Source: a virus. Taken from it: a stretch of 64,000 nucleotides of DNA. Under the pieces are notes generated by a model that was given only the letters and a program-made list of their open reading frames with translations, did not search any database and had not been told where the DNA came from. This document shows, one piece after another, positions 221-48,704 of the stretch. The stretch lies in the IMG/VR virus record IMGVR_UViG_3300028800_000001, positions 263,296 to 327,295 of that record; one strand, given 5' to 3'. A program made the translations under genes and the position numbers. The stretch's first letter is position 1, and every line of letters begins with the position of its first letter.

Positions 221-240
221 ATTTCTTTCTTCTTTCTTTT

Positions 241-1029: not shown

Positions 1030-1034
1030 AATAA

Positions 1035-1144: not shown

Positions 1145-1161
1145 TACAGAAAAGTGGTACT

Positions 1162-2103: not shown

Positions 2104-2171
2104 ACAAATCTCCAGGCAGAAAAAAGTGTGGTTGCTTTTTATTTTGTGTGAAGATTTGTATGAACGAAGTT

Positions 2172-2444: not shown

Positions 2445-2883
2445 CTTTCTTTACTACTACTAATAACAAATTTTTGAGTGCCAAAATTTCTGCATCCTGT
2501 GCTTCAAGATGCTTTTTTAGCTCTTCATTTTCATGAAAGATCTTGAGCGTGGTTTGATACGTTTCTTCCGCTTGCAATTGCTGATGTCTTCCTAACACGT
2601 CTTGCCCGACCGATAAAATTGATAAGGCAACTAATTGGATGAATGTCTGGCTTGTCCACTGCACATACTGATTGGCGGTTGCATGAAAACCAGGAAAGCC
2701 AAGGATGGCAAGAAATACAAAGAAGTAAGCACACCACATGTTGCTGAGCACATTGGTTACAAAAACCGCCACACGTTGATTGAAGCCACCTGCTTTGCGT
2801 TCTAATGCTTGCAACACATTGACGTTACGCACTTTGTGTGGGTGTTCTTTGTGTTCATATAAAGTTACTTTGTGATCACTCAT
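2437..2883 (-). CDS. membrane protein with 2 TM segments and an N-terminal coiled coil (148 aa), possibly lysis- or virion-associated
   Basis: Hydrophobic stretches FFVFLAILGFPGF and FIQLVALSILSVG; heptad-like N-terminus. Overlaps the stop of the upstream gene. Confidence 0.4.
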   Translation of the reverse strand: MSDHKVTLYEHKEHPHKVRNVNVLQALERKAGGFNQRVAVFVTNVLSNMWCAYFFVFLAILGFPGFHATANQYVQWTSQTFIQLVALSILSVGQDVLGRHQQLQAEETYQTTLKIFHENEELKKHLEAQDAEILALKNLLLVVVKKVA

Positions 2884-2896
2884 CGCTTCCTACTTC

Positions 2897-4234: not shown

Positions 4235-5368
4235 CTATTGTATCCTTCCACTGGTGTGCCGCATTTCCCTGATATAAGGAGAGCCCACCACTGCTTTATA
4301 GAGTGAGTTGAGAAAGAAGTTCAGCCAGAGATTTTGATAGGCTACGTAGCCTGCGGGAAGTGTGGGATGAATATTGTCCACATCAATTAAGCTTTGATGC
4401 GTAGAAAAATACGCATAGAGATCAGGGCCAAGAATGATGGACGGAAAACTGGCTTTGAGTGTCAAGATCTTGGTATTAATTGTAGGCGCATTCGCCAGTA
4501 AATTCGTCGTATTGCCCCAACAAATTGTCTTTGGTAATACCACCGTTTTCCCAGCACCAATCACGGCATTGATCATGGTGGTCATGTTACTGATAAAATT
4601 CGTGACGTACGTTCCGCCCTGGTTTGCATCATTGGTACCGTAGAGGAGTCCCACATATTTACCAGGAAAGAGTGCAAGCCACGTCGCAATATTGGCCGCG
4701 CCTTCGACTGCCGTAAACCCACCAATGCCGCCATCCTCCATCAAAGGAAAATTGCTGACCTGGGCATTGATTTGTGCAGGGAGTGTGGTATCGGTGTGCA
4801 AAAAACCTTGTTGCGCAATAGAGTCGCCATAAAAGATCCAATCATCAGCCAGCCCATTTGCTTTATGCACATCCATATTGATCTGCACATTATTGTTAGA
4901 AACCGATCCATTGATTGCAGTGATGCGAATGCGCACCCATTTGTACCCAGTGAGATTCACACTATGCTGACGGCTGTGATAGACGTTTCCGGTTACCGTC
5001 GCAAGCGTTATCCATCCACTTGAGGGTAAACTTCCACCGGCTGCACTATTGGCATCAATCGTGTAAGCAGCAGGAACGTTATAGGAATTATTGCTAATCA
5101 AGGTCGGATCATAGGCACCCGTTGAGGGATCGTTATACCAGACCACAACAGCCGTCGTGAGACTACTCACACCAGAAAGATCATAGGCCAGATACACGGC
5201 TTGCGTCAGCGTGCCACTGTCTGTATTTCCTGTGGGTGCTGTGAGGCAACGCCAATAATTGCCATACGTGCTGTCGTTGGCTTGCGAGGCTGGAAACGCA
5301 CCTGAAAAGTCATCATTGGTATAGGCAGGCACACCACGTGAGATCAGGGGCATTGGAGCTATCGTCAT
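4235..5368 (-). CDS. SGNH/GDSL-type hydrolase (esterase/deacetylase) with an N-terminal carbohydrate-binding-like region, tail-associated (377 aa)
   Basis: Block I FYGDSIAQQG (GDS), block III LLYGTNDA (GxND), block V DVDNIHPT (DxxH). Its start is 2 nt from the stop of 5370..5822. Confidence 0.65.
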   Translation of the reverse strand: MTIAPMPLISRGVPAYTNDDFSGAFPASQANDSTYGNYWRCLTAPTGNTDSGTLTQAVYLAYDLSGVSSLTTAVVVWYNDPSTGAYDPTLISNNSYNVPAAYTIDANSAAGGSLPSSGWITLATVTGNVYHSRQHSVNLTGYKWVRIRITAINGSVSNNNVQINMDVHKANGLADDWIFYGDSIAQQGFLHTDTTLPAQINAQVSNFPLMEDGGIGGFTAVEGAANIATWLALFPGKYVGLLYGTNDANQGGTYVTNFISNMTTMINAVIGAGKTVVLPKTICWGNTTNLLANAPTINTKILTLKASFPSIILGPDLYAYFSTHQSLIDVDNIHPTLPAGYVAYQNLWLNFFLNSLYKAVVGSPYIREMRHTSGRIQ

Positions 5369-5896: not shown

Positions 5897-6814
5897 TTAT
5901 TTTTGTTCGTGGCCTTGCAGGGCAAATGCAGTGCGATCTTCCCCAATGCAGAGCCAGAGATTTTCAAACAAGAGTGCTTCGGCAGGAACACTCATTGTTG
6001 GAAAAGCAGCATCTTTGTCAATATACGCTAAAGTGCAGTGTGGTGTAAAGCCATGTGTGTTGTCAATAGGAACAGGCAGAGACGTTCGAAGCTGTTCACG
6101 CCACTCTGCTATCCCTGGAAGGTCTACAGAGGCGTAAAACGGCAGCGTAGCGCTCTCTGTGGGGGTGTTTGTGAAGCACCCGATCCCTGAGACAATGCCA
6201 TGTACCGGAACCGCGTTTGTCGCATAGTCACCGATTGCTTTTTTGAGCTGTGCGGAAAGGGCATCAGGAACATTCTCAGCGCTTCCTAGTATCATCAAAG
6301 TGACATGCAGCTCTTGTGGCTCACATTTCCCTTCACAGTCCAGTGCTATTTTTTGTGCGGCATCTGGCTCCAGATAAAATGCCACCATGATTGGCAAGGC
6401 CGACACAGGTTTAGGTTGCTCTGGTGTTTCTTCTTTGCGTAGCCACAGCGTCTTTAAAAAAGAAACATGCTCTTCGTTGGCGCGAAAGATTGGCGTCTGC
6501 AAAAAGTCTTTGACAGCTATATCGTGTGCTGCAAGATAGCCAATTAATTGTTCTTCATTCTTGACAGGCAACGTCCATGTCGTCTCTTCAAAGATGCTTT
6601 TCTTCTTTGCAGGTTCTTCATCTGAAAGGGTTGCGCGCTCCTCTTCTGGGAGATCATCAAGATTTTCACAAGGCAGCACACGATTCAAAAAATCTTCACG
6701 TGCTTCATCAGTCAATTGGTGCCGTTGCAAAAACTTGGCAACGCGGCGTGAGAGATCAGGTGACATATTGTCAGGTACACTGCTTTTTGCACTATCGTCT
6801 TTGAGTATTTTCAC
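5897..6814 (-). CDS. 2H phosphoesterase superfamily protein (LigT / cyclic phosphodiesterase-like) with an acidic N-terminal extension (305 aa)
   Basis: Two H-x-T-x motifs at the expected spacing: ELHVTLMILG (around aa 170) and FTPHCTLAYI (around aa 262). Confidence 0.6.
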   Translation of the reverse strand: MKILKDDSAKSSVPDNMSPDLSRRVAKFLQRHQLTDEAREDFLNRVLPCENLDDLPEEERATLSDEEPAKKKSIFEETTWTLPVKNEEQLIGYLAAHDIAVKDFLQTPIFRANEEHVSFLKTLWLRKEETPEQPKPVSALPIMVAFYLEPDAAQKIALDCEGKCEPQELHVTLMILGSAENVPDALSAQLKKAIGDYATNAVPVHGIVSGIGCFTNTPTESATLPFYASVDLPGIAEWREQLRTSLPVPIDNTHGFTPHCTLAYIDKDAAFPTMSVPAEALLFENLWLCIGEDRTAFALQGHEQK

Positions 6815-9800
6815 AAAGTGTCTCCATTCAAAATGGTTTTGCCTACACGGGTTGCTGTTCTATTTAAAACTACCAGAAAGTCAGCACGTTTATTGATCGA
6901 ATCTACATGAGAGCGATCAACATAAATGGCATCATAGCCCTTCATTGCGGCGTAGCGACCAGGATCGTTGGCAAGATCAAAGAGCCGATCAATGCGGCGT
7001 GACTCCGTATACTTCCCAGCATCATCCAAGGCTTTGCCCCGTGTACGCAAATCATTCTTGTAGTCAATCCACTCATTGATTAAACGTCCCTTCTCAATTG
7101 CGGTGGTATTTTTGAGTACGGACATATGCAGCACATCATCGCCATAAGTAGCGGCCACATGAGACGCACTATATCGGTCAGATACTCCTTCTGTGGTAAG
7201 CGCGGTATAGGTTCCGTTGCCATAGACGCCAAGTCCTGCAAAATAGTGCCCACTTTGATAGCTTGCAGCATAGCCCAGGCCGTCAGAGGGATCACCACCA
7301 TCATCCACACCGCGATAGAGCTCAGCCTCACCGTCTTTAATGTGCTGCGCAAGCACATTATCTTCAACCACATGTGGAGGGCCATCAAACCCCTGTGCTT
7401 TATAGATTTCCTGTAAGCAGGCGTCGGCATCCGTGGCGCTACTGCTTCCTGGGATTGGGCCTTTGCCTGTATCCATATAGTTTTTGACGTAGGGAATATC
7501 TTCAGGGTTGCTATATTTGGCTTCCGTCTTCTGAAATTCCTGGTTATCAGGGTGTTTCGGTCCTTTCTCGCGGGTACCATCAGCATGCACAAGCAGGTGT
7601 GCATTTTCTGTCGTGGTAAATTTCCCTACGTGATCATGCGCAGGGTTGTACTTTTCTTCAAACTGCTCAACACTTTTTGTTCCTGAGACGCGGTAAGAAA
7701 TGCCTTTGGCTTTGAGTTGTGCCTCAAGCGGTGGTGTAAGCTCATAATCATTATGAAACACAATTTCTGCAATAGTTGAGGTGTTTAGACCACCATGAAA
7801 TTGTGCCTCTGGATAGCCGCGTACATCACTCACGTTTTGGTAGGTCAGTGGATCTGGACCATGCACACTAAAATTGGTATGATCAGGATGCAGCATGCTT
7901 CCTGGCAAGAGATAGCCACCCATACCAAGTGAGTCATCACCTGTCCAGGTGGTTTTTTGCTTCACCTCTGGTTTGAAGCGAACCGCAACGCCTCCATATT
8001 CATCAACAGAGTCGAACATGCCATGCCGCGTCTGTCTCAGGCTTGCGCCGTCAGGATGATCGCTTAGATAGCCGTAAAGTGGACGCTGCTCTTTGGCAAG
8101 ATCGTCTGGATAGCCAAAGAGATCATGTTCTGCTTCAGAACGTGAATCGTGATCCATAATTCCCGCAGAGGTATTGGTTTCAAATTGCGACTTGAAGCGT
8201 TCATCATCCAATATCTTTGAAAGAATTGTTGGGCGTACCCGCATCCAAGGTTCTGCATTCTTGAGCAGTTCCACGGCTTTGTCATCAACGGCTTTGTTGT
8301 ACTCTTCAGCCGTCATGTTATGCGTCTGCGCATGCTTTTCAGCGAACGCTGCACCTTGTATGTCATATTTTTTGAGGACGGCGTCTGGTGGACGCACCTG
8401 TTCTAAGATATCTTTTTTCTGATTATCAGGATGCGCCGGTCCTTTTTCAGTGGTACCATCACGATGCACTAAAAGGTGGGCATTTTCGGTGGTCGTAAAT
8501 TGTCCATTGTGCCCGTGGGCTGGATTATATTTCGCTTCGCCTGTGAGCAGCTCTTGATCACGTGCGGATAAATCTTCTAGCGATTGCACACCCATCAAAC
8601 GATTGAAAAAGTCCTGACGCTCTGCGAGTGTCCAAGAGGCCGCAACAGGGCCAGCAAGAAACTTTTCTACCAGTGGTACTAGATCAGGGGCAAGCGTATC
8701 AGGGATTGTGTTAATGGCTTGATTTTCTGCATCAGTGATTTGATCTTTATGTTCTGGGGTATCATCATCTATTTCCTCGTCATTTTGCTTCTCCTCTGGT
8801 AAATACAATGAAAGATCAAGTGGTTCATGCATCTTGCCGTGGCTGCGATGCCCTGGCTTTTTGCGCGGCACAGGGATAACGCCATGAGCAGGTTTGCCGT
8901 GAGGAGCCGCATGTGGTTTTGCAGCAGGTGCGCCGTGAGCAGCAGCAGGTTTCTTGAGTGGCTTCACGCTCGTTGGCACTGCTGGATGCTTTGGTGGCAT
9001 TCCACCGGTTTGTGACTCAGGGTGTGCCGTAATCTTGAAAAAGTCTTCCCAGGTGGGATTCTTCATTCCAGCTAGCTGATGCAAAATCTCAAAACGTTTT
9101 GCGAAACCTAACGCTGCTTCATCATTGGCTGCATACTCTTTTGAGAGGATCAGGGCTTTGGTTTCTTTGGTGAGAAACTTTCCCAGGATGCCATGATCAA
9201 TGCTGTTGCGCAGAAAACTTTTTCCAATGACTTTCATCAGAAAGCTATGCGACTGGATTGCAATATCTTTTTTGACGAGTGCCGAAGAAAGTTGTGTCAG
9301 GTTAATCTTGCCGGTCTTTTGATTGAGGGTATAGTGTCCAGATTGATCTTGTTTCATGCCAAGAATATATTCCAACATGCCGACTTTGGTCACCTGATCA
9401 GGGGGCATTTTCTCCATTGCCTCGGTTGCCGTCTTATCATCCAGGGGAGTGCTTTTTACATCCTCAGAGACCACTACGGGCTCTTTGTCCACTGTTCCAC
9501 TGTGGACTACAGGCACCGTATCAGAGGCTCCTACCAGATCTGCAATGCGGCTTGCACCGGTCTGTGAAAAGGCAATGCGCGTGCTACCAGTGGGCACAAT
9601 ACGATACGTCTTGCCATTAATGTTGGCGGTATAGACGCCGTCAGCCCCTCTGGTCATTGCCCCTTTGTCGGAGAGGGCTTTCGCAATGTGGGCAGGCATG
9701 GTGGTGAGCACATCAGCGTGCACACCGCCTGCGCCATCATCAGCACCGATGAATTGTCCGGTCGTAGTGCTGTGATTACGGTTATATTTTTCTTCAGGAA

Positions 9801-9870
9801 GATAGAGTGTAAGGTCAGGTTTCTCCTGTTCTTCTATCTCTTTACGAAAGAGAGCATAATGATACTTCAT
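6811..9870 (-). CDS. 1019-aa polyvalent protein: N-terminal unique region, His/Pro/Ala/Lys-rich linker, two tandem KYNPxH-leader + GRFKSQFETN modules, C-terminal ~230-aa domain
   Basis: Repeated LYLPEEK(Y/Q)N, EAKYNPAHGHNGQFTTTENAHLLVHRDGT and EEKYNPAHDHVGKFTTTENAHLLVHADGT. One complete core module (WMRVRP, ERFKSQFETNTSAG, RPLYGYLS, TWTGDDSL, YPEAQFHGG, GISYRV). C-terminus has ELYRGVDDG...GVYGNGTY. Low-complexity linker KPAAAHGAPAAKPHAAPHGKPAHG. Confidence 0.7.
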   Translation of the reverse strand: MKYHYALFRKEIEEQEKPDLTLYLPEEKYNRNHSTTTGQFIGADDGAGGVHADVLTTMPAHIAKALSDKGAMTRGADGVYTANINGKTYRIVPTGSTRIAFSQTGASRIADLVGASDTVPVVHSGTVDKEPVVVSEDVKSTPLDDKTATEAMEKMPPDQVTKVGMLEYILGMKQDQSGHYTLNQKTGKINLTQLSSALVKKDIAIQSHSFLMKVIGKSFLRNSIDHGILGKFLTKETKALILSKEYAANDEAALGFAKRFEILHQLAGMKNPTWEDFFKITAHPESQTGGMPPKHPAVPTSVKPLKKPAAAHGAPAAKPHAAPHGKPAHGVIPVPRKKPGHRSHGKMHEPLDLSLYLPEEKQNDEEIDDDTPEHKDQITDAENQAINTIPDTLAPDLVPLVEKFLAGPVAASWTLAERQDFFNRLMGVQSLEDLSARDQELLTGEAKYNPAHGHNGQFTTTENAHLLVHRDGTTEKGPAHPDNQKKDILEQVRPPDAVLKKYDIQGAAFAEKHAQTHNMTAEEYNKAVDDKAVELLKNAEPWMRVRPTILSKILDDERFKSQFETNTSAGIMDHDSRSEAEHDLFGYPDDLAKEQRPLYGYLSDHPDGASLRQTRHGMFDSVDEYGGVAVRFKPEVKQKTTWTGDDSLGMGGYLLPGSMLHPDHTNFSVHGPDPLTYQNVSDVRGYPEAQFHGGLNTSTIAEIVFHNDYELTPPLEAQLKAKGISYRVSGTKSVEQFEEKYNPAHDHVGKFTTTENAHLLVHADGTREKGPKHPDNQEFQKTEAKYSNPEDIPYVKNYMDTGKGPIPGSSSATDADACLQEIYKAQGFDGPPHVVEDNVLAQHIKDGEAELYRGVDDGGDPSDGLGYAASYQSGHYFAGLGVYGNGTYTALTTEGVSDRYSASHVAATYGDDVLHMSVLKNTTAIEKGRLINEWIDYKNDLRTRGKALDDAGKYTESRRIDRLFDLANDPGRYAAMKGYDAIYVDRSHVDSINKRADFLVVLNRTATRVGKTILNGDTL

Positions 9871-25265: not shown

Positions 25266-25597
25266 GTGATTACTACAACGAGTGCCTGGAGACGGTGAAG
25301 AACCGTTTTCCCGAATTGCTCTTTGAGCTCTATGACCGACGTGATCCGGTGTATCTGCGCAGCAATTTTGATACCATCGTACAGGGGATTGAGCATCTGA
25401 TGCCGGTTGGTGCTCAGGTCTGGACGCTCACCCTCGCAGAGGCGCAAAGCGTCACCGCAATTGGCTATCTAGAACTGATCAAGCGCAGCGACGAAACCGT
25501 TAAGATTGCTTTTATGGATGTTCCAGCACAGTATAAGCAACCAATTCTTGAGAGTCTTGCCCTGTTCTTTAGTATTCAGGAGTTGGAGAAACTATGA
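25262..25597 (+). CDS. hypothetical protein (111 aa)
   Basis: ORF track. 4-nt overlap with neighbours. Confidence 0.4.
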   Translation: MSDYYNECLETVKNRFPELLFELYDRRDPVYLRSNFDTIVQGIEHLMPVGAQVWTLTLAEAQSVTAIGYLELIKRSDETVKIAFMDVPAQYKQPILESLALFFSIQELEKL

Positions 25598-25896
25598 GCG
25601 TGTACGTTGATCCGCTTTTTACTACCACGCCAAAGGCGAATTGGGCGTATAAAAAAGCATGCCATATGACGGCTGACACTGAAGAAGAACTGCACGCAAT
25701 GGCAGAGCGTCTGGGACTCAAACGCTCCTGGTTTCAAAATCATCATCCACGCGCCGTCTTCTGGCATTACGATTTAACCGTAAACAAACGCAGGCAGGCC
25801 ATTGATTACGGAGCTGTTCCCATCACAGGGCAGCAAGTATTGGCACGTGTTCTGGCATACAACGAACGAGAACGAAAAGAGAAAGAAACGAATTAA
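25594..25896 (+). CDS. DUF4031-like protein (100 aa)
   Basis: YKKACHMTADTEEELHAMAERLGLKRSWFQ resembles the conserved CHM.AD...ELH.mA.r.G core of DUF4031. Confidence 0.45.
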   Translation: MSVYVDPLFTTTPKANWAYKKACHMTADTEEELHAMAERLGLKRSWFQNHHPRAVFWHYDLTVNKRRQAIDYGAVPITGQQVLARVLAYNERERKEKETN

Positions 25897-25949
25897 TTAA
25901 TTTTTCAACCTTCTTTTTATAAAAATAAAAAATAATTAATTATTTATTT
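25891..25949 (+). promoter_or_regulatory. AT-rich bipartite promoter/leader for the helicase gene (AATTAATTAATTTTT ... ATAAAAAATAATTAATTATTTATTT, then RBS AGGAGG)
   Basis: Fifth copy of the paired AATTAATT architecture, here on the plus strand. Confidence 0.45.
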
Positions 25950-25983
25950 CCAATCTTACTATGAGAAGGAGGATCTTTTTTTT

Positions 25984-28560
25984 ATGGCACTAGCACTCGC
26001 ACCGCGACCATATCAGCAAGAAGCATTTGATGCGATTATGGCACAGAATATCAAAGCATTGGTGAAGCTCCCGACAGGGTGCGGGAAAACTTTGTTGTTC
26101 CCGATGTTGGCAAGGCATAAACGTTTTAGCAAAAAGATAACGCTTATTCTGGCAGAGCACGAAGAACTGTTAGAACAGGCCCGTGATAAGATTTTGCGCA
26201 TGTACCCCAATGCTGACGTTGGTATTGTGGGCTTTGGGAAAGCGGAGTGGGACCATCGGATAATTCTAGGGGGCGTGGATACGCTTTCCTATTCAAAGCG
26301 CTTAGAGAAATTGGCAACGCTGGATATCGGGTTAGTTATCTGTGACGAGTGTTTTCCGGCAGGAACACTTGTTGACGGGCGTCCTATTGAGACGTTGAAA
26401 GTTGGTGATACTGTCACGGCGTTTGATGAGAAAACGCAGACGTTTGCACAAAGACGTATCACTTCTGTCTCTCAGAAGTCGGCAGTAAGACTTTTAAAAA
26501 TTATAGTAAATGGTGCATCGGTAGTATGCACGCCAAACCATCCATTTTACACTGAATCTGGATGGAAATATGCTGAGAACATTTTGGTAGGAGAGAGAAT
26601 ACTGTATGCAAATCTTACTAGCAACGTGCCCGATTTGCGAGCAACAATTTCCGGTGTTGGAAAGTCACAAGCGAATCAAGTTCAGGAAAGGAATTCCAGT
26701 GTTTTGCTCACCAACATGCACAAAGATTGCAGTCTCAAAGATGAATTCAGAGAGAATGGCGAAGACAAACAAGAAATATGCTTCGCAGCGTATGAGAAGA
26801 AACAATCCGATGCGCAACGAATCTTCGAGAAAGAAAATGAGATCAACTTTGGTGGCAATGGGACATGTTCCGAAGATTCGTGGGGGCAACGGAAAAGGAT
26901 TAACAGTTCCGCAGCGGCTTTTGTTCGAGAGACTTGGTTGGGAACCGAAAGAAACTATTGTGAGAACGAACATAGTGAAAGCGGAGAATCTAGAGCGGTA
27001 TCCAACACATTACAAGGTGGACATTGGCAACGAAGCGCTGATGATAGCTATAGAAATCGATGGGGGGTCTCATTATTCGATAATGAGGAGAAAACAGGAC
27101 GCGAAGAAAACGAAGTTTCTTGTTGGAAGAGGGTGGACGGTATTGAGGTTTACGAACCAGGAAGTGATGGAACATTTGGAGGATTGTGTCCAGGCGGTTC
27201 AGTCTACAATTTTGAAGTCGAAGACCTCCATACCTATACAGCAAATGGCTTCGTAGTTCATAACTGCCATCATGCGGTCACCAAGAGCTATCTAGATATC
27301 TTTGCGGCCTGCAAAAATGCTTTTTTGTATGGCAATACTGCAACGGTGGATCGCCATGATCAGCGTGACATTACGGCTATCTTTGGCCCACCGGTTTACA
27401 GTAAATCTATTAATGAAATGATTGATGCCGAATATCTTTGTGGCATCGTTCCTTTTACTATTCGAACACAGAACACCATCAATGTTGCGGTTTCTGCAAC
27501 CTCTGGTGATTATAGTGAAGCGCGGCTGGAGCAGGCCGTCAATCGAAAGGATCGTAATGATTGCATCGTTCGGGCGTGTTGTGAAGAAAAGTATGGTGGA
27601 CCTGATTTGCCTACTGTTGTCTTTTGTGCTGGTACGCAGCATGCGAAAGAGCAGGCTTTGGCATATGTTCGAGCAGGAATACCTGCCGCGCATATTACGA
27701 TGGATGTTCCCAAAGAAATTCGTGAACAGCATTATGCTGATTTTGCTACCGGCGCAATTAAAGTCCTCACCAATGTCCAAATTCTTACTGAAGGATGGGA
27801 CGCGGATGTACGAAGGATTGTGTTTGCCCGTCCTACAAAAAGTCGCCCTCTCTTCACTCAAATGCTGGGGCGCGGGACTCGTATCGCTCCTGGTAAGGAA
27901 GCTTGTATTCTCTTAGATTTTACCGACAATTATCTTGACCATGATCTTGAGCCCTGCACACTAGAAGATGTTCTTGGTGTACCAGTACGCGAAGGGGTGG
28001 ATTGCCGAGAGGTTATTCGTAAAGAGAAGGAGGCCAGTGGTGGCGCGGTTCCTGAAGACGGTGAAGAGAAGAAAAAGCGTGAGAAGCAGGAAATTGACGA
28101 GCGCAACAAACTGGTTGAGAAGCAGCTCACGTTCCGCTACAAGTGGCAGCAGGTGCAAGGTGGCGCATACATTGCCACCGTTGGCGATAAGCGTGCCGGA
28201 GGCGATTTGATCCTCTACCCATCAAAAGCCGGTGGTTATATCGTCGGGGTCTCCTATAAAGAAACACCAATGGCAAAGCAACCAAAAGAGGTGGTGGTTG
28301 CAAGAAACGTGCCGCTTTCCTGGGCTCAATCAATTGCAGAGCAGCAAGGGAAAAACTTGCAACTGGGCAATTATCAATTTATTGATCCTGATGCTCCCTG
28401 GCGGAAAAGTAAGCCATCGCAGGCGCAACTTGACCAAATCAAAATGCTTTCAAAAGCAACTTATGGGAAAATTCTTCCAAAGAAGAATATGACCAAGGGT
28501 GAAGCTTCAGAACTGATCTCTAAAGGGTTTGCGCTCTTGCAGCAAAAAGGGAGAAAGTAA
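25984..28560 (+). CDS. SF2 DExH-box helicase interrupted by an intein in motif II (858-aa precursor)
   Basis: Motif I LPTGCGKT. Motif II is split as LVICDE|C...intein...HN|CHHA, restoring DECHH after splicing. Motifs V/VI ...VLTNVQILTEGWDA...FTQMLGRGTRIAP. C-terminal ~200-aa extension. Confidence 0.75.
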   Translation: MALALAPRPYQQEAFDAIMAQNIKALVKLPTGCGKTLLFPMLARHKRFSKKITLILAEHEELLEQARDKILRMYPNADVGIVGFGKAEWDHRIILGGVDTLSYSKRLEKLATLDIGLVICDECFPAGTLVDGRPIETLKVGDTVTAFDEKTQTFAQRRITSVSQKSAVRLLKIIVNGASVVCTPNHPFYTESGWKYAENILVGERILYANLTSNVPDLRATISGVGKSQANQVQERNSSVLLTNMHKDCSLKDEFRENGEDKQEICFAAYEKKQSDAQRIFEKENEINFGGNGTCSEDSWGQRKRINSSAAAFVRETWLGTERNYCENEHSESGESRAVSNTLQGGHWQRSADDSYRNRWGVSLFDNEEKTGREENEVSCWKRVDGIEVYEPGSDGTFGGLCPGGSVYNFEVEDLHTYTANGFVVHNCHHAVTKSYLDIFAACKNAFLYGNTATVDRHDQRDITAIFGPPVYSKSINEMIDAEYLCGIVPFTIRTQNTINVAVSATSGDYSEARLEQAVNRKDRNDCIVRACCEEKYGGPDLPTVVFCAGTQHAKEQALAYVRAGIPAAHITMDVPKEIREQHYADFATGAIKVLTNVQILTEGWDADVRRIVFARPTKSRPLFTQMLGRGTRIAPGKEACILLDFTDNYLDHDLEPCTLEDVLGVPVREGVDCREVIRKEKEASGGAVPEDGEEKKKREKQEIDERNKLVEKQLTFRYKWQQVQGGAYIATVGDKRAGGDLILYPSKAGGYIVGVSYKETPMAKQPKEVVVARNVPLSWAQSIAEQQGKNLQLGNYQFIDPDAPWRKSKPSQAQLDQIKMLSKATYGKILPKKNMTKGEASELISKGFALLQQKGRK
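26350..27264 (+). other. intein (305 aa) inserted in the helicase DECH box
   Basis: N-terminal Hint blocks CFPAGTLVDG...KVGDTV and CTPNHPFYTESGW. C-terminal blocks VYNFEVEDLHTYTANGFVVHN, followed by the +1 Cys. Boundaries come from codon arithmetic, with C123 at 26350. Confidence 0.7.
26606..27256 (+). CDS. nested out-of-frame gene inside the intein: Zn-finger + DUF559/Vsr-like PD-(D/E)xK endonuclease (216 aa), putative homing endonuclease
   Basis: Frame +2 relative to the helicase. N-terminal CPICEQQ...CSPTC. C-terminal KVDIGNEALMIAIEIDGGSHY...RRKQDAKKTKFLVGRGWTVLRFTNQEV matches the DUF559 core (vDf..klaIEvDG..H...D..R...L...GW.VlRF.n.ev). The helicase/intein frame stays open across the same 651 nt. 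Confidence 0.55.
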   Translation: MQILLATCPICEQQFPVLESHKRIKFRKGIPVFCSPTCTKIAVSKMNSERMAKTNKKYASQRMRRNNPMRNESSRKKMRSTLVAMGHVPKIRGGNGKGLTVPQRLLFERLGWEPKETIVRTNIVKAENLERYPTHYKVDIGNEALMIAIEIDGGSHYSIMRRKQDAKKTKFLVGRGWTVLRFTNQEVMEHLEDCVQAVQSTILKSKTSIPIQQMAS

Positions 28561-28866
28561 ATGCTTATTGGAATGTATCCAACGCTACTCAATACACAGG
28601 GGCTTCCGGTTTCGGTGTCCCTGTTCGAGTTCCTTGCCAGTGATTCGCTAGAGGAATTGAAACCATTTGCTGTACAGGAGGCGCAAGAGAAGAACAAACG
28701 TCAGTTCATTGCGCTACTTGGAGGTCGTTACGTCCTCATTGATACCCATTGGCGCGCAAGCGAGTACTTTCAAGCGTGTCCCATAGTAGCGCAATTTGCA
28801 AAAAGTGGCAAAGAGACCACACGAAAGAAGAAAAATCATGAGAATAAAAATTACCAAGTGGCTTGA
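28561..28866 (+). CDS. hypothetical protein (101 aa)
   Basis: ORF track. ATGCTT start overlaps the helicase stop. Confidence 0.3.
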   Translation: MLIGMYPTLLNTQGLPVSVSLFEFLASDSLEELKPFAVQEAQEKNKRQFIALLGGRYVLIDTHWRASEYFQACPIVAQFAKSGKETTRKKKNHENKNYQVA

Positions 28867-33531: not shown

Positions 33532-33648
33532 TTTCATCAACATTTAACAAAAGTACTTGTTTTTTCCTTGATTTTTGGGTACGCTTAACAAGCATTCGCT
33601 TTTGTAGCGCGTCCTTGAACTGTGAACAAATACTCAAGGGAGTTTTGT

Positions 33649-35997
33649 ATGCGCCACCTCAAAACATCTGTGACTCTTTTTGCATTATTCTTTGTAGTCT
33701 TCTTTTTGAGTACCTCCACTGTAGCCGCGAAACCTGTAGCTGGTCCTGTCGTACTTTCTGGGGACATCCTTCCTGGTATGAAACCAGTGAGCGGGGCAGT
33801 GGTCAATTTACAAACGTCTATCCCGATAGAGTTATCCCTGTCAGTGCAAAATCAGCCAGGGCTCAATACATTGCTTGCAGAAATCTACAATCCGCAGTCC
33901 ACAGAGTACCATCACTATCTAGCAAAAGGGCAATTTGCTACGATGTTTGGGTCGTCACCTGCGCAACAAACACAAATCAAACAGTTTCTTACCCGTAATG
34001 GCCTGACATTTGATAACTTTGCCAATAGCAACTTATTGGTGCATGCGCATGGTTCACTTGCGGCCATTGATCAGGCGTTTGCCGTGAGCATGCAAACGGA
34101 ACAGATCAAAGGCACGAAGTTCCTGGCGAATACTGTAGAGCCATCGGTGCCAGCAGCAATAGCTCCACTCGTAACAGGTGTGCAGTTAGAACAAGCGCCA
34201 CAATCGCTCTTCGTCAAGCCGCAAGGAAGAACAACTGGTCAACGTTTTCTCACGCCATCAGGGTATGGCCCTGCCGATATTAAGACGGCCTTTAGTGGCA
34301 CGTCTTATCTTGGGACTGGAAGTGGACAAAAGATAGGGGTTGTCGGGTTCGATGTACTTGCAGCTAGTGACATTACTGCCTATGAACGGCAGTACGGTGT
34401 CATTTGTGGCACCTGTAATGTGAGTATAACTACTGTCACTACAGGAAACACCGCAACTGATGTCGATATTGAACAGGCATTAGATTTCGAGCAAATTATC
34501 GCACTCGCGCCATCAGCCACGTATTACTTCTATGACGAGGAAAGAAACGACTTTACTGGATTTCAGGATAATATTGCAACTGTTGCAAGTGCCGACGTGG
34601 TGAACACTGCTAGCTTGAGTTGGGGATGGGATTGTGAACAAGCGCCAGGTTCTACCATAAAATCATCTGTGAATACCTCCCTGGCTACCATGTCCAGTCA
34701 AGGGCAGTCATTCACAGATGCTTCTGGTGACGATGGTTCTGCGCAAGCAGATGTCTGTGGAGGTGGTGTACCTAATGTTGATTACCCTGGAACAGAACCG
34801 AATGCGCTCACAACTGGTGCGGTTCATGTTTCTGCAACGAGCCCACTTGCGCAGACGAATTGGTACGATGTTTCTGATCCCACTCCTGGTTTTCAGTGCA
34901 GTTCTGATCCGGTCTGTGAAAGTGGAGGTGGCGTAAGTACCTACTATGCAGCCCCCGCCTGGCAAACGGGCACAGGAGTCACTGAAGCTACATATAGCCA
35001 AACAGGAACGTATTGTGGACAGAGTACAGGTGTGCATTGTCGAGAGATGCCTGATGTTTCCGGCGATGGAGGCACAGATGGCAGTCTAGTTGGTGATCTT
35101 GCACTTTATGATAGTGGAACATGGGGATTAGTTTTTGGGACAAGTGCCTGTGCGCCGCAATGGGCAGCATTCATCGCCGATTTCAATGCTAGTTCAGGAA
35201 CCACTATTGGGACGCCAATGACTAGCCTCTACGGCTTTTGGAACGCGACCCAGAATGTTGGGTACAACGGTTTTACTGACGTAACCACTGGTTCTTCAGA
35301 TTATTATCCTGTTGGAACTGGATATGATATGGCAACAGGGCTTGGCACCCCGCGCCTTGACCAACTCCTTTGGGACTACGAAGGCTTTTTAGGTTGGGAT
35401 AAATTTGGAAATCGTAACACGATTAGTAGTGGATGGAACGGCACAAAGAACGCGCAGGACGGTCAGGCGTGGGCTGGCGATCCTGTATCCAATGCTGCTT
35501 TTAGCGTACCTGTTGCAGGCGGTGAGGGTGATATCGCGCCTTCTGCCAATACGAACTTCAATGGACAGCTTGGACCATCTAGTAGCGATGATGAGCAAGT
35601 CGTAATTGAGGCGCAGGCGTCTTCATGGACCAGTACCAATCTCGGCGCAGTAGCGAGATGGAGTTCCAACTCGAACTGGTACAGAGCCTACATCAATGGC
35701 ACAAATTTAAAAATTGATAAGCTGGTCGCAGGAACAGCGACCAATCTTGCTACCTTTGGCTTTACCGCATCAACCAGTACAAAATACTGGATTAAGTTCA
35801 AAGTCGTAGGGACCACGCTAGAAGCAAAAGTTTGGGTAGAAGGAGGTTCTGAGCCTGGAAGTTGGCAGGCAACGGTTACTGATTCTAGTTTCTCATCTGG
35901 GAAAGAAGGTATTCGCTTTGGAGTGGGGAATGGAGTGACCGCGAATCTCTTCGCGTTCTATGGAGGCAGTGGTTTGAAGTTTAAGCCAGTAGCATAA
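33649..35997 (+). CDS. secreted peptidase S53 (sedolisin/kumamolisin-like) with signal peptide, N-terminal pro-domain and C-terminal ~200-aa beta-rich extension
   Basis: RBS caAGGGAG precedes MRHLKTSVTLFALFFVVFFLSTSTVAA|KP. The active-site serine motif VFGTSACAPQWAAF matches GGTSAAAP of S53/S8 peptidases. Confidence 0.6.
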   Translation: MRHLKTSVTLFALFFVVFFLSTSTVAAKPVAGPVVLSGDILPGMKPVSGAVVNLQTSIPIELSLSVQNQPGLNTLLAEIYNPQSTEYHHYLAKGQFATMFGSSPAQQTQIKQFLTRNGLTFDNFANSNLLVHAHGSLAAIDQAFAVSMQTEQIKGTKFLANTVEPSVPAAIAPLVTGVQLEQAPQSLFVKPQGRTTGQRFLTPSGYGPADIKTAFSGTSYLGTGSGQKIGVVGFDVLAASDITAYERQYGVICGTCNVSITTVTTGNTATDVDIEQALDFEQIIALAPSATYYFYDEERNDFTGFQDNIATVASADVVNTASLSWGWDCEQAPGSTIKSSVNTSLATMSSQGQSFTDASGDDGSAQADVCGGGVPNVDYPGTEPNALTTGAVHVSATSPLAQTNWYDVSDPTPGFQCSSDPVCESGGGVSTYYAAPAWQTGTGVTEATYSQTGTYCGQSTGVHCREMPDVSGDGGTDGSLVGDLALYDSGTWGLVFGTSACAPQWAAFIADFNASSGTTIGTPMTSLYGFWNATQNVGYNGFTDVTTGSSDYYPVGTGYDMATGLGTPRLDQLLWDYEGFLGWDKFGNRNTISSGWNGTKNAQDGQAWAGDPVSNAAFSVPVAGGEGDIAPSANTNFNGQLGPSSSDDEQVVIEAQASSWTSTNLGAVARWSSNSNWYRAYINGTNLKIDKLVAGTATNLATFGFTASTSTKYWIKFKVVGTTLEAKVWVEGGSEPGSWQATVTDSSFSSGKEGIRFGVGNGVTANLFAFYGGSGLKFKPVA

Positions 35998-47564: not shown

Positions 47565-48704
47565 TTAGTTTCCTGTAAACTCTGAAGGGACGACATTTTG
47601 TGTTGATTTGAGTAATTCTTCCAGGTAACTGAGCACTTCGGTTGAGGTGATCTTTTGCGTTGTCGGCTGATTCGCCTGTAATGCACTCAGTTCTTTGGAA
47701 AGTGCGGTTGCGTTGGCGATAGCTGCGTCACGCTGTTGTTGCAAAATAACCATTTGTTTGCTCGTATCAGTCAGTGTTTGCTGGAGTGTTGCTGCTTGCT
47801 TTTGAAAGTTGGCCGCTTCTTCGGCTTCCTTAAAGAGATTGTCAATATGCGTCATATAGCAGTTGCTTGCCCCTGGAGGACTATCAAGCAGGTGGGAAGG
47901 GTCATAACTGATTTCACCGCGTTCAAAACGCTGTCGCGTTGCAGTACGGCCCTGATGATCAACAACAGAATGTCCAACATTGTCGAGTGCTTTCTCTTCG
48001 TTGCTTATTGGCAGGCCAAGGAGCGTAATGCCGTTGAGGCCAATATTGCCGACGTTTTGATAAAAGGCGAGAATATCGCCTCCAAGAAAGCAGCCATTCT
48101 TTTTGCATTGCCAGCGATTTGTGCCAACCAACTTAAAATAATTGGCAACAACAGGATTTCCGATATCAAGCATGGTATTTGCTCCTAAGAAGGTGAAGAG
48201 GCCGTCCCACGGGTACGTACCTGGGCAGTCGCGTCTGCTGACAGGATCGATAGAAAAGTGGCCGGTGATACCGCCTGTGGCGTCGGCTTTACGCGTCGGA
48301 ATATTCCAGCGCTGACAAATATGTTTAATGAGTGTAAAACTTGCCTGCTGCTGTTGTGGGGTGAGTGCGAGGCCATTGGTGACGTTATTGACGTGTTCAA
48401 TAGAGATAGTAACTAAGTTAGGATTGATTGACCACCAGGAATCCGCGCCTGCGGTAATCACCCCGTTTGCCCATGCCGCGTCATGTTCGCTGACGCATTG
48501 CACAATAATTCCATCACGTCCAACGACGTAGTGAGCTGAGACTTGCGATGCAGGGTTGGCAAAATAGTTGGCAATATTTTGTGCGGTTGGATCGCCTTGT
48601 GATCCGGTACCATGCAAAATAAGATGTGTAGGGCTGTGCCCATAGCGATTCGTCCACATATTTGCTGTTGGTATCCAGAGCGCTCCTGGTTCGTCCATGA
48701 TCAT
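47565..48704 (-). CDS. endolysin: N-acetylmuramoyl-L-alanine amidase (Amidase_2/PGRP) N-terminal domain plus C-terminal binding/coiled-coil region (379 aa)
   Basis: THLILHGTG, AHYVVGRDG, AAWANG and SIEHVNN are typical Amidase_2 zinc-amidase blocks. RBS GGGAGA. Confidence 0.7.
   Translation of the reverse strand: MIMDEPGALWIPTANMWTNRYGHSPTHLILHGTGSQGDPTAQNIANYFANPASQVSAHYVVGRDGIIVQCVSEHDAAWANGVITAGADSWWSINPNLVTISIEHVNNVTNGLALTPQQQQASFTLIKHICQRWNIPTRKADATGGITGHFSIDPVSRRDCPGTYPWDGLFTFLGANTMLDIGNPVVANYFKLVGTNRWQCKKNGCFLGGDILAFYQNVGNIGLNGITLLGLPISNEEKALDNVGHSVVDHQGRTATRQRFERGEISYDPSHLLDSPPGASNCYMTHIDNLFKEAEEAANFQKQAATLQQTLTDTSKQMVILQQQRDAAIANATALSKELSALQANQPTTQKITSTEVLSYLEELLKSTQNVVPSEFTGN

What the first reader, a model, noticed from the sequence alone, without database searches (positions are those of the whole stretch)
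26350..27264. Intein in the helicase DECH box with an out-of-frame, fully overlapped DUF559/Vsr-like endonuclease gene (dual-coding region)
Extein junctions (LVICDE | CFPAGTLV ... GFVVHN | CHHAV) regenerate the DExH motif II on splicing, so the 305-aa element is an intein. Its central ~650 nt is open in two frames at once. The intein frame encodes a hydrophilic linker. Frame +2 encodes a 216-aa protein with a Cys4-like N-terminus and a C-terminus matching the DUF559 / very-short-patch-repair-like PD-(D/E)xK core (AIEIDGGSHY ... GWTVLRFTNQEV). Inteins normally carry LAGLIDADG or HNH endonucleases in-frame. A separately translated, frame-shifted homing-endonuclease gene embedded in an intein would be an unusual solution; the chance of a 216-codon window being open in a second frame at random is roughly 3e-5.
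Basis: partly seen in the sequence, partly recalled or inferred. Interest (0 to 1): 0.8.

Follow-up and report, generated by a model that had tools for sequence, protein, structure and literature searches.

The report
Helicase intein hiding frame-shifted homing endonuclease
A phage helicase gene is interrupted by a self-splicing protein element (intein) whose DNA also encodes, one base out of register, a complete and conserved DNA-cutting enzyme; the arrangement is real, shared by many unrelated phages and never annotated, though the general idea was first described in 2025.

Summary

This is not an assembly artefact or chance. The same layout, always with the same frame offset, occurs in 28 of 39 IMG/VR loci, 5 MAG contigs and 40 GenBank phages (Vibrio CP-T1, Pseudomonas MR14, Corynebacterium phi673). 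None of the GenBank records annotates the inner gene.

Purifying selection acts in the endonuclease frame. The intein frame across it evolves like non-coding sequence but never has a stop (0 observed, 3-18 expected, in 25 of 25 loci), and it is predicted to be disordered. About 150 nt at the 3' end encode the nuclease's last strand and helix and also the Hint C-terminal strands.

The concept was published in 2025 (Gosselin et al.) for other nuclease types and orientations, and Dassa 2009 described the split-intein version. I rate this a new variant of a known kind. Independent translation and homing are inferred, not shown.

The parts
25984..28560 (+). Helicase precursor ORF (858 aa), SF2 DExH helicase including the intein
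   Evidence: ORF list. Pfam ResIII, DEAD and Helicase_C. 853 homologues found.
25984..26349 (+). N-extein (122 aa), ending in the D-E of motif II
   Evidence: Alignment with intein-less P0106, P0107 and P0117.
26350..27264 (+). Class-1 intein, 305 aa: Cys1 ... His-Asn, followed by Cys+1
   Evidence: Pfam Intein_splicing and PT-HINT. Clean 305-residue gap in intein-less relatives. Same DE|C..(H/S)N|C/S junctions in the related contiguous loci.
26350..26619 (+). Hint N-terminal splicing subdomain (block A CFPAGT; block B TPNH at 26530-26541)
   Evidence: Conserved columns C1, T61 and H64, alignment of 25 loci, and a mostly confident beta structure up to precursor residue 212 (10-residue block means 72-92 over 131-210; residues 123-128 below 50).
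26620..27108 (+). Intein-frame 'linker' (163 aa): kept stop-free but otherwise unconstrained and predicted disordered
   Evidence: pLDDT below 50 and almost no secondary structure (two short helical turns) for residues 213-375. Amino-acid identity is 20%, the same as the non-coding third frame. pN is at least pS. No stops against 11.4 expected.
27109..27264 (+). Hint C-terminal splicing subdomain (strand RVDGIEVYE, block F VYNFEVEDLHTY, block G NGFVVHN)
   Evidence: Alignment of 25 loci and AF2 strands 379-426.
27265..28560 (+). C-extein, starting with the Cys+1 of C-H-H (completes motif II DECH)
26606..27256 (+). Embedded homing-endonuclease-like gene: 216 aa, +1 frame relative to the helicase/intein
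   Evidence: ORF. Pfam DUF559 E=3.9e-12. 104 homologous protein clusters. AF2 mean pLDDT 93.4. Purifying selection in this frame.
26588..26590 (+). TAG stop in the endonuclease frame, five codons upstream of its ATG
   Evidence: Read directly from the sequence and from the open-stretch analysis. It argues for internal initiation rather than read-in from upstream.
26589..26597 (+). Shine-Dalgarno-like AGGAGAGAG, 8-12 nt before ATG 26606 (inferred ribosome-binding site)
   Evidence: Sequence. It is unpaired in the predicted local RNA fold. By my reading of the 20 nt printed upstream of each start, roughly half of the 25 related loci have an SD-like purine run there. The helicase's own GGAGG has a 10-nt spacer.
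26627..26719 (+). Cys4 zinc-ribbon of the endonuclease (C8, C11, C34, C38)
   Evidence: Nearly invariant columns in the 64-sequence alignment. Weak zf-FCS and L24e-like matches.
26756..26812 (+). Conserved helical motif MAKTN+KYASxRMxxNNPM, a presumed DNA-binding module
   Evidence: Conserved columns. AF2 helices 36-65 and 72-84. The function is inferred.
26948..27226 (+). DUF559/Vsr-like nuclease core of the endonuclease (aa 115-207), with invariant D139, E150, D152, H156, D165
27109..27256 (+). Doubly functional overlap: the nuclease's last strand and helices (GWTVLRFTNQEVMEHLE...) in the +1 frame, and the Hint C-terminal strands and block F in the helicase frame
   Evidence: Both frames are conserved across 25 loci. 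The distance from GW.VLRF to the intein end is 134 nt in 15 of 25 loci. blastn matches to distant phages (78-84% nt identity) lie almost only here: 8 of the 9 hits fall within about 27131-27274.

Best explanation
This is a mobile intein whose homing-endonuclease gene is written in a different reading frame from the splicing domain, on the same strand.

Shown here:
- The helicase gene is one uninterrupted 858-codon ORF.
- Codons 123-427 are a class-1 Hint intein, placed between the DE and the CH of helicase motif II.
- The stretch where canonical inteins carry an in-frame endonuclease domain is, in the intein frame, a 163-residue filler. It is unstructured and unconstrained, and selection only keeps it free of stop codons.
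- The same DNA read one base later is a 216-codon gene under purifying selection. It encodes a Zn-ribbon, a helical module and a DUF559/Vsr-like nuclease with all conserved acidic and His residues intact.
- Its last ~45 codons share nucleotides with the C-terminal splicing strands of the intein.

Inferred:
- The precursor is translated through the filler. The two Hint halves fold together with the filler looped out. Standard splicing (Cys1, Asn305, Cys+1) then releases a 553-aa helicase with DECH restored.
- Ribosomes start independently at ATG 26606, which has an SD-like AGGAGAGAG upstream and an in-frame stop five codons upstream, and make the free endonuclease.
- In a mixed infection the enzyme cuts intein-less helicase alleles near the DE|CH codons. 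Recombinational repair then copies the intein and endonuclease in as one unit.

The layout most likely arose when a free-standing endonuclease gene of this family invaded a mini-intein. The same nuclease family is also found in four other settings: free-standing next to intein-less helicases, between the halves of split inteins, fused in frame to the N-terminal intein half, and fully in frame in another intein.
For: Anatomy.

Conservation of the layout:
- The +1 offset and an open host frame occur in phi673, MR14 and CP-T1.
- They also occur in 28 of 39 IMG/VR loci and 5 of 8 MAG loci. The third frame is always closed.

Stop avoidance: 0 stops in the host frame in 25 of 25 distinct loci, against 3-18 expected from synonymous shuffles. 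Each locus has P<=0.025, most <=5e-5.

Selection:
- Nucleotide divergence at endonuclease-frame codon positions 1/2/3 is 0.49/0.44/0.65.
- Amino-acid identity is 40% in the endonuclease frame, against 20% in the host frame and 20% in the third frame.
- pN/pS is 0.005/0.104 in the endonuclease frame and 0.029/0.012 in the host frame for a close pair. For distant pairs it is 0.35/0.8 against about 0.47/0.4.

Fold:
- The endonuclease model has pLDDT 93.4 and matches 3hrl, I-Bth0305I and Vsr.
- Invariant D139, E150, D152, H156 and D165.
- In the precursor model the helicase and most of the Hint domain are confident (the first six intein residues, 123-128, fall below 50), and residues 213-375 have pLDDT around 30.

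Mobility signature:
- The closest exteins (68-69% identical) lack the intein, while the nearest intein/endonuclease relatives sit in helicases about 30% identical.
- phi673 and phi674 differ by an exact 906-nt presence/absence in flanks about 99% identical. Substitutions cluster in the first 78 nt 3' of the site.

Relatives in other arrangements.
Against: - No expression data exist. The start at 26606 and its SD-like run are only plausible: the spacing is 8-12 nt, and I saw no recognisable SD in roughly half of the related loci (my reading of the upstream sequences).
- No promoter or RNA structure above chance was found.
- Nothing here shows that the nuclease cuts the helicase gene. DUF559 proteins are mostly uncharacterised.
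- At sequence level the nuclease is closer to bacterial DUF559 (3hrl, E=8e-13) than to the one proven homing enzyme of this fold (3r3p, E=0.02).
- Splicing across a 163-residue disordered insert is assumed from general knowledge of mini-inteins, not tested.
- The only two substitutions in the overlap between the window and its 98% relative are both non-synonymous in the endonuclease (T7A, R92L). Two events are too few to interpret.
Confidence: 0.8

Rival explanations
1. Assembly or sequencing artefact: the endonuclease is really an ordinary in-frame intein domain, and two compensating indels (near 26600 and 27120-27250) only make it look frame-shifted.
For: The window is a metagenomic-type assembly. 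A two-frame layout is what a pair of indels would produce. In-frame versions of a related nuclease do exist in another intein (L036-L039, L041).
Against: The same +1 offset is seen in isolate phage genomes from three host genera (Corynebacterium, Pseudomonas, Vibrio; three of them read in detail) and in more than 30 metagenomic loci whose DNA is too diverged to share errors. An independent 98%-identical assembly has no indel. The 3' part of the nuclease and the Hint C-terminal strands use the same nucleotides in different frames, so no single frame could encode both.
Confidence: 0.01
2. Relic: the intein is fixed and still splices, but the inner ORF is a no-longer-expressed remnant of an old invasion, kept open only by accident or by constraints from the intein frame.
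For: No expression evidence. I saw no obvious SD in roughly half of the loci (my reading). The W/L044 pair shows two non-synonymous changes in the ORF.
Against: The intein frame places no amino-acid constraint on this stretch, so it cannot explain the data. The ORF stays open and 40% identical across hosts of very different GC content. It has third-position-dominated divergence, pN/pS as low as 0.05, and invariant catalytic-type residues in 64 sequences. The AF2 model is highly confident.
Confidence: 0.05
3. The endonuclease is made by ribosomal frameshifting from the helicase frame, giving an N-extein-IntN-endonuclease fusion, rather than by internal initiation. The element would then behave like a split intein part of the time.
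For: L018 has exactly this fusion hard-wired: a 397-aa ORF of N-extein + IntN + nuclease, with IntC and the C-extein in the other frame. SD-like sequences can stimulate frameshifting (general knowledge).
Against: In the window the endonuclease frame has a stop five codons before its ATG, and in several other loci the open stretch in that frame begins only 1-15 codons before the chosen start. Any shift would therefore have to occur within a few codons. Every one of the 25 ORFs has an ATG or GTG just before the Zn-ribbon. No slippery motif is evident by eye.
Confidence: 0.05
4. The inner protein is expressed but is not a homing enzyme for this intein. It might instead be a nuclease for phage competition, host DNA degradation or repair that merely uses the intein as a safe landing site.
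For: DUF559 is a large and mostly uncharacterised bacterial family. The closest solved relative is a bacterial protein of unknown function (3hrl). No target-site data exist.
Against: In the 39 IMG/VR loci, this clade of the nuclease is always tied to SF2-helicase motif II or to an intein. It is inside the intein (28 loci), between the halves of split inteins in helicases (3), fused in frame to the N-extein and IntN of such a helicase (1), directly upstream of intein-less helicases (2), or in frame in another intein (5). There is a precise intein +/- polymorphism in near-identical phages, with substitutions clustered at the site. The fold family already contains a proven homing enzyme (PMC3239194).
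Confidence: 0.09

Closest known systems
'Non-canonical' actinophage inteins with the homing endonuclease in another frame or strand (Gosselin, Arsenault & Gogarten, bioRxiv 10.1101/2025.01.02.630785)
   Same: A contiguous splicing-domain frame whose middle is structureless filler. A recognisable endonuclease ORF overlaps it in a different frame. The proposed origin is invasion of an intein by a free-standing endonuclease gene, and annotation pipelines miss it.
   Different: That paper reports antisense LAGLIDADG, antisense VSR-like and same-strand frame-3 endonuclease-VII-like genes. The hosts are DNA polymerase, minor capsid, terminase and thymidylate synthase of actinophages. Here the nuclease is a same-strand, +1-frame DUF559/Vsr-like enzyme in an SF2 helicase motif-II intein, found in phages of Vibrio, Pseudomonas, Corynebacterium and many uncultured lineages. 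[quoted passage not shown]
'Fractured genes': split inteins with a free-standing Vsr-like or GIY-YIG endonuclease gene between the halves (Dassa et al. 2009, PMC2677866)
   Same: The same nuclease class on the same strand, at the same position between the Hint halves, and in phage DNA-metabolism genes including helicases. The 3' end of the endonuclease overlaps the start of the C-terminal intein part (6-69 bp there). Relatives of the window's nuclease occur in exactly this arrangement (L024, L025, L035).
   Different: There the host frame is broken: a stop follows IntN, then a 27-51 nt spacer, and IntC has its own start, so splicing must be in trans. Here the host frame is continuous and under selection to stay so. 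That implies cis-splicing, and the overlap is the whole 651-nt gene.
I-Bth0305I / EDxHD homing endonuclease family (Taylor et al. 2011, PMC3239194; PDB 3r3p)
   Different: I-Bth0305I sits in a group I intron and has NUMOD repeats rather than a Cys4 ribbon. Sequence similarity is marginal (E=0.02), and the window's nuclease is a clear PF04480/DUF559 member instead.
ShiLan-type 'hidden' out-of-frame HNH endonuclease insertions in phage methylase genes (Arsenault et al. 2025, PMC11855218)
   Same: An endonuclease ORF is fully nested out of frame inside a host ORF that stays stop-free, and the host-frame read-through is predicted to be a loop.
   Different: That element has no splicing domain at all, so the filler stays in the mature protein, and the nuclease is HNH. 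Here a complete Hint domain removes the insert.
Canonical bifunctional inteins (in-frame LAGLIDADG or HNH endonuclease domain)
   Same: The same insertion logic: a conserved catalytic motif of a replication protein, the endonuclease located between blocks B and F, and a sporadic distribution.
   Different: In canonical inteins one polypeptide carries both activities. Here there are two polypeptides from two frames.

Membership tests
Intein (class 1 Hint splicing domain) | N-terminal Cys/Ser at position 1 and block B TxxH | tested here: met
   Cys1 (CFPAGT) and T61-P-N-H64. They are conserved in phi673 and MR14. Across the 25 loci Cys1 is kept throughout and block B in most.
Intein (class 1 Hint splicing domain) | C-terminal His-Asn followed by Cys/Ser/Thr at +1 | tested here: met
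   VVHN|C in the window. All related loci have (H/S)N|C or (H/S)N|S.
Intein (class 1 Hint splicing domain) | Profile match to the intein splicing domain above the curated threshold | tested here: met
   PF14890 at 38.2 bits (cut-off 35.8) and PF07591 at 42 bits (cut-off 27.7) for the 305-aa segment.
Intein (class 1 Hint splicing domain) | In-frame insertion in a conserved host motif, with uninterrupted intein-less homologues | tested here: met
   P0106 and P0107 read DE|CHHA with a clean 305-residue gap. phi674 lacks exactly the 906 nt present in phi673.
Intein (class 1 Hint splicing domain) | Protein splicing actually occurs | not testable with these tools
   Inferred from the intact catalytic residues and from selection keeping the frame open.
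DUF559 / Vsr-like endonuclease (PF04480) | Profile match above the curated threshold | tested here: met
   46.4 bits against a cut-off of 20.6, E=3.9e-12, residues 135-201. PF04480 is precomputed on all 104 homologues.
DUF559 / Vsr-like endonuclease (PF04480) | Vsr-type alpha/beta nuclease fold | tested here: met
DUF559 / Vsr-like endonuclease (PF04480) | Conserved catalytic acidic/His residues | tested here: met
   D139, E150, D152, H156 and D165 are invariant in 64 sequences. Their equivalence to Vsr D51/H69/D97 is inferred; I did not check it by superposition.
EDxHD homing endonucleases (I-Bth0305I lineage) | Sequence-level membership and NUMOD-type N-terminal DNA-binding repeats | tested here: inconclusive
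   The profile against 3r3p gives only E=0.02. The N-terminus is a Cys4 ribbon plus an NNPM-containing helical motif. I did not test NUMOD homology.
Homing endonuclease (functional class) | Cleaves the element-less allele at or near the insertion site and drives super-Mendelian inheritance | not testable with these tools
   Only indirect signs are available: a sporadic distribution, and the phi673/phi674 presence/absence polymorphism with clustered site polymorphisms.
Fractured gene / split intein with a free-standing endonuclease (Dassa 2009) | Host ORF broken by a stop after IntN, with a separate IntC-C-extein ORF | tested here: not met
   The host frame is continuous from 25984 to 28560, and in 25 of 25 analysed contiguous loci. 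Relatives L024, L025 and L035 do meet this feature.
Inteins with an out-of-frame homing endonuclease (Gosselin et al. 2025) | A contiguous splicing frame with a structureless middle, plus a recognisable endonuclease ORF overlapping it in another frame | tested here: met
   The nuclease type, orientation and host gene differ from the four published architectures.

The most novel reading that the evidence does not exclude
The two-frame layout may be a stable, co-adapted architecture that has spread across SF2 helicases of phages from several bacterial phyla, rather than a fleeting intermediate. The nuclease's last beta-strand and helices are written in the same ~150 nt as the intein's C-terminal splicing strands. 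A deletion reaching the 3' end of the endonuclease gene would therefore destroy splicing and kill the helicase. The overlap would then act as an 'anti-deletion lock' that slows the usual decay of homing endonucleases in the homing cycle. The family would also show all stages of the long-hypothesised route from a free-standing endonuclease to a split intein, an overlapped intein and an in-frame bifunctional intein, within one nuclease lineage.
Probability: 0.4. Interest if true: 0.75.

Novelty: new variant of a known kind. Interest (0 to 1): 0.6.

Why it matters
How inteins acquired their endonucleases, and why those endonucleases do not always decay, are old questions. This family offers one nuclease lineage in every proposed evolutionary state, and the overlapped state is the commonest.

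It also shows that many 'mini-inteins with long linkers' in phage helicases are complete mobile elements whose endonuclease is invisible to annotation. That holds for all 40 GenBank phage records matched here.

It provides a clear natural case of about 150 nt encoding parts of two unrelated folded domains in two frames.

Cultured systems exist for direct tests: C. glutamicum phages phi673 (intein+) and phi674 (intein-), V. cholerae phage CP-T1 and Pseudomonas phage MR14. The nuclease is a compact candidate sequence-specific enzyme.

Tried and rejected
- Promoter/terminator consensus scan of 25700-28700: 6 promoter-like sites against 3.8 expected, none compelling. One lies 32 nt upstream of ATG 26606.
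- RNA folding around the endonuclease start: z=+0.95, so there is no regulatory hairpin like those Dassa 2009 saw upstream of free-standing endonuclease genes.
- Ungapped comparison of the window with L044 failed because of flank indels. I redid it with blastn and a gene-only comparison.
- Looking up the Ktedonobacter homologue P0003 for genomic context: not on record.
- DNA-level search of GenBank phages with the whole gene found little beyond the ~110-140 nt doubly coding segment: 8 of 9 hits lie there and one is a short C-extein match. That became evidence rather than context.
- Correlating intein-N, endonuclease and extein distances gave only moderate correlations (Spearman 0.38-0.62). It did not resolve whether the intein and nuclease move strictly as a unit.
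- In the 3' overlap, host-frame identity measured on the nuclease-based alignment was not above the third frame (31% vs 35%). Host-frame conservation there is visible only in the intein-based alignment.
- Literature searches for intein + DUF559, and for intein with CP-T1 or MR14, found no prior description of the inner gene. The phi673 genome paper noted the intein only.
- I considered and rejected the minus-strand ORFs inside the intein (26665-26973, 26990-27244). They are mechanical ORFs with no support.


Full report
**1. What is in the sequence.**

The region holds one long plus-strand ORF, 25984-28560 (858 aa).
- Its ends match SF2 helicase profiles: ResIII 65.9 bits, DEAD, and Helicase_C.
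- Residues 123-427 match the Intein_splicing and PT-HINT profiles.
The insert is 915 nt (305 aa).
- A database search found two close intein-less helicases, P0106 and P0107, 68-69% identical to the exteins. They align with a clean 305-residue gap and read DE|CHHA. The boundaries are therefore exact, and excision restores motif II, DECH.
- The intein has Cys1, block B T-P-N-H, block F VYNFEVEDLHTY, block G ending in HN, and Cys+1.

Inside the intein, one base out of register, lies an ATG-initiated ORF at 26606-27256 (216 aa).
- It hits Pfam DUF559 at E=3.9e-12, 46.4 bits against a cut-off of 20.6.
- It has 104 homologous protein clusters, all carrying PF04480.

**2. Is it chance or an artefact?**

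Neither.
- I fixed the 216-aa protein and shuffled its synonymous codons 20,000 times. The helicase frame then carries 11.4 stops on average and was never open. The observed count is 0. The third frame has 18 stops against 15 expected.
- A second assembly from a different ENA sample (L044) is 98% identical over 10 kb. Its gene has 9 substitutions and no indel.

The decisive evidence is that the layout recurs in unrelated genomes.
- Corynebacterium phage phi673 gp43, Pseudomonas phage MR14 gp44 and Vibrio cholerae phage CP-T1 gp10 each have an 840-990-aa 'helicase' with DE|CF..GT ... VHN|CHH and a ~210-aa homologue of the inner ORF in the +1 frame.
- A pattern scan of IMG/VR returned 39 loci. 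In 28 of them the frame one base upstream of the nuclease frame is open across the whole nuclease gene, as part of a 700-1585-aa ORF, while the third frame is always closed (longest open stretch 6-93 codons).
- Every such locus that retains the junctions has (M/I/V..)DE|C ... (H/S)N|C/S junctions. L016 is cut off at the contig end before the C-terminal junction, and L031's N-terminal junction was not captured by that BLAST-based extraction.
- Five of eight hits in bacterial MAG contigs are the same.
- tblastn against GenBank phages found 40 records: CP-T1, phage 24, Rostov M3, 30+ Vibrio lentus/crassostreae phages, MR14 and phi673. In every one, the only annotated feature under the match is the helicase itself.

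**3. Which frame is under selection for what?**

I aligned the nuclease ORFs of 25 distinct loci. The results below refer to the part that does not overlap structured intein.
- Pairwise nucleotide divergence at nuclease-frame codon positions 1/2/3 is 0.49/0.44/0.65.
- Amino-acid identity is 40% in the nuclease frame. It is 20% in the intein frame, the same as the 20% seen in the non-coding third frame.
- Nei-Gojobori counts agree. For the close pair L049/L050, pN/pS is 0.005/0.104 in the nuclease frame and 0.029/0.012 in the intein frame. For distant pairs it is about 0.35/0.8 against about 0.47/0.31-0.49.

So the nuclease protein is under purifying selection. The intein-frame translation of the same DNA is unconstrained except that it must not contain a stop. 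The intein frame has 0 stops in 25 of 25 loci, against 3-18 expected. P is at most 0.025 in each locus and at most 5e-5 in most.

**4. Structure.**

- With a 64-sequence alignment, AlphaFold2 models the 216-aa protein at mean pLDDT 93.4. The model has a small Zn-ribbon (C8, C11, C34, C38), long helices carrying the conserved MAKTN+KYASxRMxxNNPM motif, and an alpha/beta nuclease core (residues ~115-207).
- D139, E150, D152, H156 and D165 are invariant in 64 sequences.
- At sequence level the domain is clearly DUF559 (3hrl, E=7.8e-13). It is only marginally similar to I-Bth0305I (E=0.02).
- The 858-aa precursor model has a confident helicase and a largely confident Hint domain (residues 123-128, the first six of the intein, fall below pLDDT 50). 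Residues 213-375 (nt 26620-27108) have pLDDT around 30 and almost no secondary structure (two short helical turns). That stretch is the nuclease-only part of the overlap.

**5. The 3' overlap.**

The structured intein resumes at 27109, and the nuclease ORF runs to 27256.
- In the nuclease frame these ~150 nt encode G-W-T-V-L-R-F-T-N-Q-E-V-M-E-H-L-E..., the last core strand and the C-terminal helices.
- In the intein frame they encode W-K-R-V-D-G-I-E-V-Y-E ... V-Y-N-F-E-V-E-D-L-H-T-Y.
- Both readings are conserved across the 25 loci.
- The distance from GW.VLRF to the intein end is 134 nt in 15 of 25 loci.
- This doubly constrained segment is where DNA-level matches to phages of Corynebacterium, Pseudomonas and Vibrio concentrate, at 78-84% nt identity. 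Eight of the nine blastn hits lie there; the ninth is a short match in the C-extein.
- The nuclease tail beyond about residue 203 looks dispensable, because several homologues stop there.

**6. Expression signals.**

- The nuclease frame has a TAG five codons before its ATG, and an AGGAGAGAG run ends 8 nt before the ATG. The helicase's own GGAGG has a 10-nt spacer.
- All 25 ORFs have an ATG or GTG just upstream of the Zn-ribbon. By my reading of the printed upstream sequences, roughly half have an SD-like purine run.
- No promoter or RNA structure stands out.
- Internal initiation on the helicase mRNA is thus the simplest model, but it is inferred.

**7. Evidence bearing on mobility.**

- The window's closest exteins lack the intein. 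One of them (L042) lies in a 66.8-kb contig with the same upstream DUF4031 gene and patchy ~70% nt similarity to the window. Its site reads GACGAA|TGCCATCAC, against GACGAG|TGCCATCAT for the spliced window sequence.
- The nearest intein and nuclease relatives sit in helicases only 22-35% identical, including SNF2-like ones (DE|SQRIRN in L020).
- The published phi673 genome paper noted an intein in gp43 and none in phi674 gp40 (PMC6132909).
- I find that phi674 lacks exactly the 906 nt. The flanks are about 99% identical for ~2.5 kb each side. The phi674 site reads DE|VHH (GTG), where phi673 has Cys+1 (TGT). Seven substitutions fall in the first 78 nt 3' of the site, against 0-7 per 250 nt over the next 2.5 kb.
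- This pattern fits recent gain with co-conversion, or a cleavage-resistant empty allele. It does not prove homing.

**8. Relatives in other arrangements.**

- L017 and L021: the nuclease gene is free-standing, directly upstream of and overlapping an intein-less helicase gene.
- L024, L025 and L035: it lies between the halves of a split intein in SNF2-type helicases, the 'fractured gene' form.
- L018: N-extein, IntN and nuclease are one ORF, and IntC with the C-extein is in the other frame.
- L036-L039 and L041: a related Zn-ribbon/NNPM/Vsr-like nuclease is fully in frame inside an intein of a ~700-aa ORF that I did not profile. Its sequence recalled a phage head-morphogenesis (Mu F / SPP1 gp7-like) protein to me, but that identification is from memory and was not tested.

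One nuclease lineage therefore occupies every state of the evolutionary scheme drawn by Dassa et al. 2009. The overlapped contiguous state is the most frequent in this sample.

**9. Comparison with what is known.**

- Dassa et al. 2009 (PMC2677866) described split inteins with free-standing Vsr-like endonuclease genes and 6-69-bp overlaps with IntC.
- Gosselin, Arsenault and Gogarten (bioRxiv 2025) reported contiguous actinophage inteins with endonucleases in another frame or strand. These were antisense LAGLIDADG, antisense VSR-like and same-strand frame-3 EndoVII-like, in DNA polymerase, minor capsid, terminase and thymidylate synthase. They predicted that such elements are under-annotated.
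- Arsenault et al. 2025 (PMC11855218) described out-of-frame HNH genes nested in methylase genes without any splicing domain.
- The present element belongs to this recently recognised kind but differs in several ways. It has a different nuclease/orientation combination (same strand, +1 frame, DUF559/Vsr-like) and a different host gene and site (SF2 helicase motif II). It has a much wider host range. It also has a conserved overlap of the nuclease core with the splicing domain itself.
- I found no paper describing it. The searchable library is incomplete, so this is not proof of absence.

**10. Verdict.**

I rate the novelty as a new variant of a known kind.

Shown:
- the intein and its exact boundaries;
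- the overlapping conserved nuclease gene;
- frame-specific selection;
- enforced openness of the intein frame;
- a disordered filler in the intein frame;
- a wide and sporadic distribution.

Inferred:
- cis-splicing;
- internal initiation at 26606;
- cleavage of intein-less helicase alleles, and homing.

Noticed in passing
L021 3906-3946 (IMG/VR UViG_3300031867_000701): An intein-less helicase sits directly downstream of a free-standing copy of the nuclease gene, and it is frame-shifted exactly at the intein insertion codon. The sequence reads GATGAA-CGGA-CACCAC where GATGAA-TGC-CACCAC is expected, a 1-nt insertion. This could be a repair scar at the cleavage site, a resistance mutation or a sequencing error.
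   Followed up: partly
L018 2320-4583 (IMG/VR UViG_3300010351_001913): A variant in which the N-extein, the N-terminal intein half and the nuclease form one 397-aa ORF, while the C-terminal intein half and C-extein are in the other frame. It is either a real IntN-nuclease fusion working as a split intein or a single-base assembly error.
   Followed up: partly
L036-L039 and L041 (e.g. L036 1468-3663): A related Zn-ribbon/NNPM/Vsr-like nuclease lies fully in frame inside an intein (HPN|CFINGQ ... VVHN|CRC) of a ~700-aa ORF. By eye the host looked like a phage head-morphogenesis (Mu F / SPP1 gp7-like) protein, but no profile search was run on it. An in-frame Vsr-like intein endonuclease appears not to be among the classically listed types.
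   Followed up: partly
L024/L025 1998-4412 and L035 1092-3924: These are 'fractured' SNF2-type helicases. Split inteins sit after DEAHC / DEIHK, and the same nuclease family lies between the halves, overlapping both. This matches the Dassa 2009 arrangement.
   Followed up: partly
L047 (phi673) 6733-7638 vs L046 (phi674) ~6735: A natural intein+/intein- pair of C. glutamicum phages. phi674 lacks exactly the 906 nt. The empty site encodes DE|VHH (GTG) rather than Cys+1. Seven substitutions lie within 78 nt 3' of the site, in flanks otherwise ~99% identical.
   Followed up: yes
GenBank phage records H10-H49 (e.g. NC_019457.1 CP-T1 gp10, 6842-9823): All 40 GenBank phage records containing this nuclease annotate only the enclosing 'helicase', 'coil containing protein' or 'hypothetical protein'. 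The inner gene is never annotated.
   Followed up: yes
window 26880 vs L044: The 98%-identical sister assembly has CGT->CTT. This is silent in the intein frame but changes R92 of the RGGNG motif of the nuclease to Leu. The other overlap substitution (26624) is non-synonymous in both frames.
   Followed up: partly
window 33622-35997 (+) and the window as a whole: A 791-aa ORF carries a pro-kumamolisin (sedolisin) activation domain (E=6e-22) in what looks like a phage genome. The window has an Amidase_2 endolysin at 47565-48704, DUF4031 at 25594-25896, no tRNAs, about 46-47% GC, and large ORFs that mostly lack Pfam matches.
   Followed up: no
L020 (IMG/VR UViG_3300047160_005727), host ORF 3-4757: The same intein and +1 nuclease unit sits in a 1585-aa SNF2-like protein, with Ser+1 (DE|CLPTGT ... 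LVHN|SQRIRN). The element has evidently crossed between SF2 helicase subfamilies at the homologous motif II position.
   Followed up: partly
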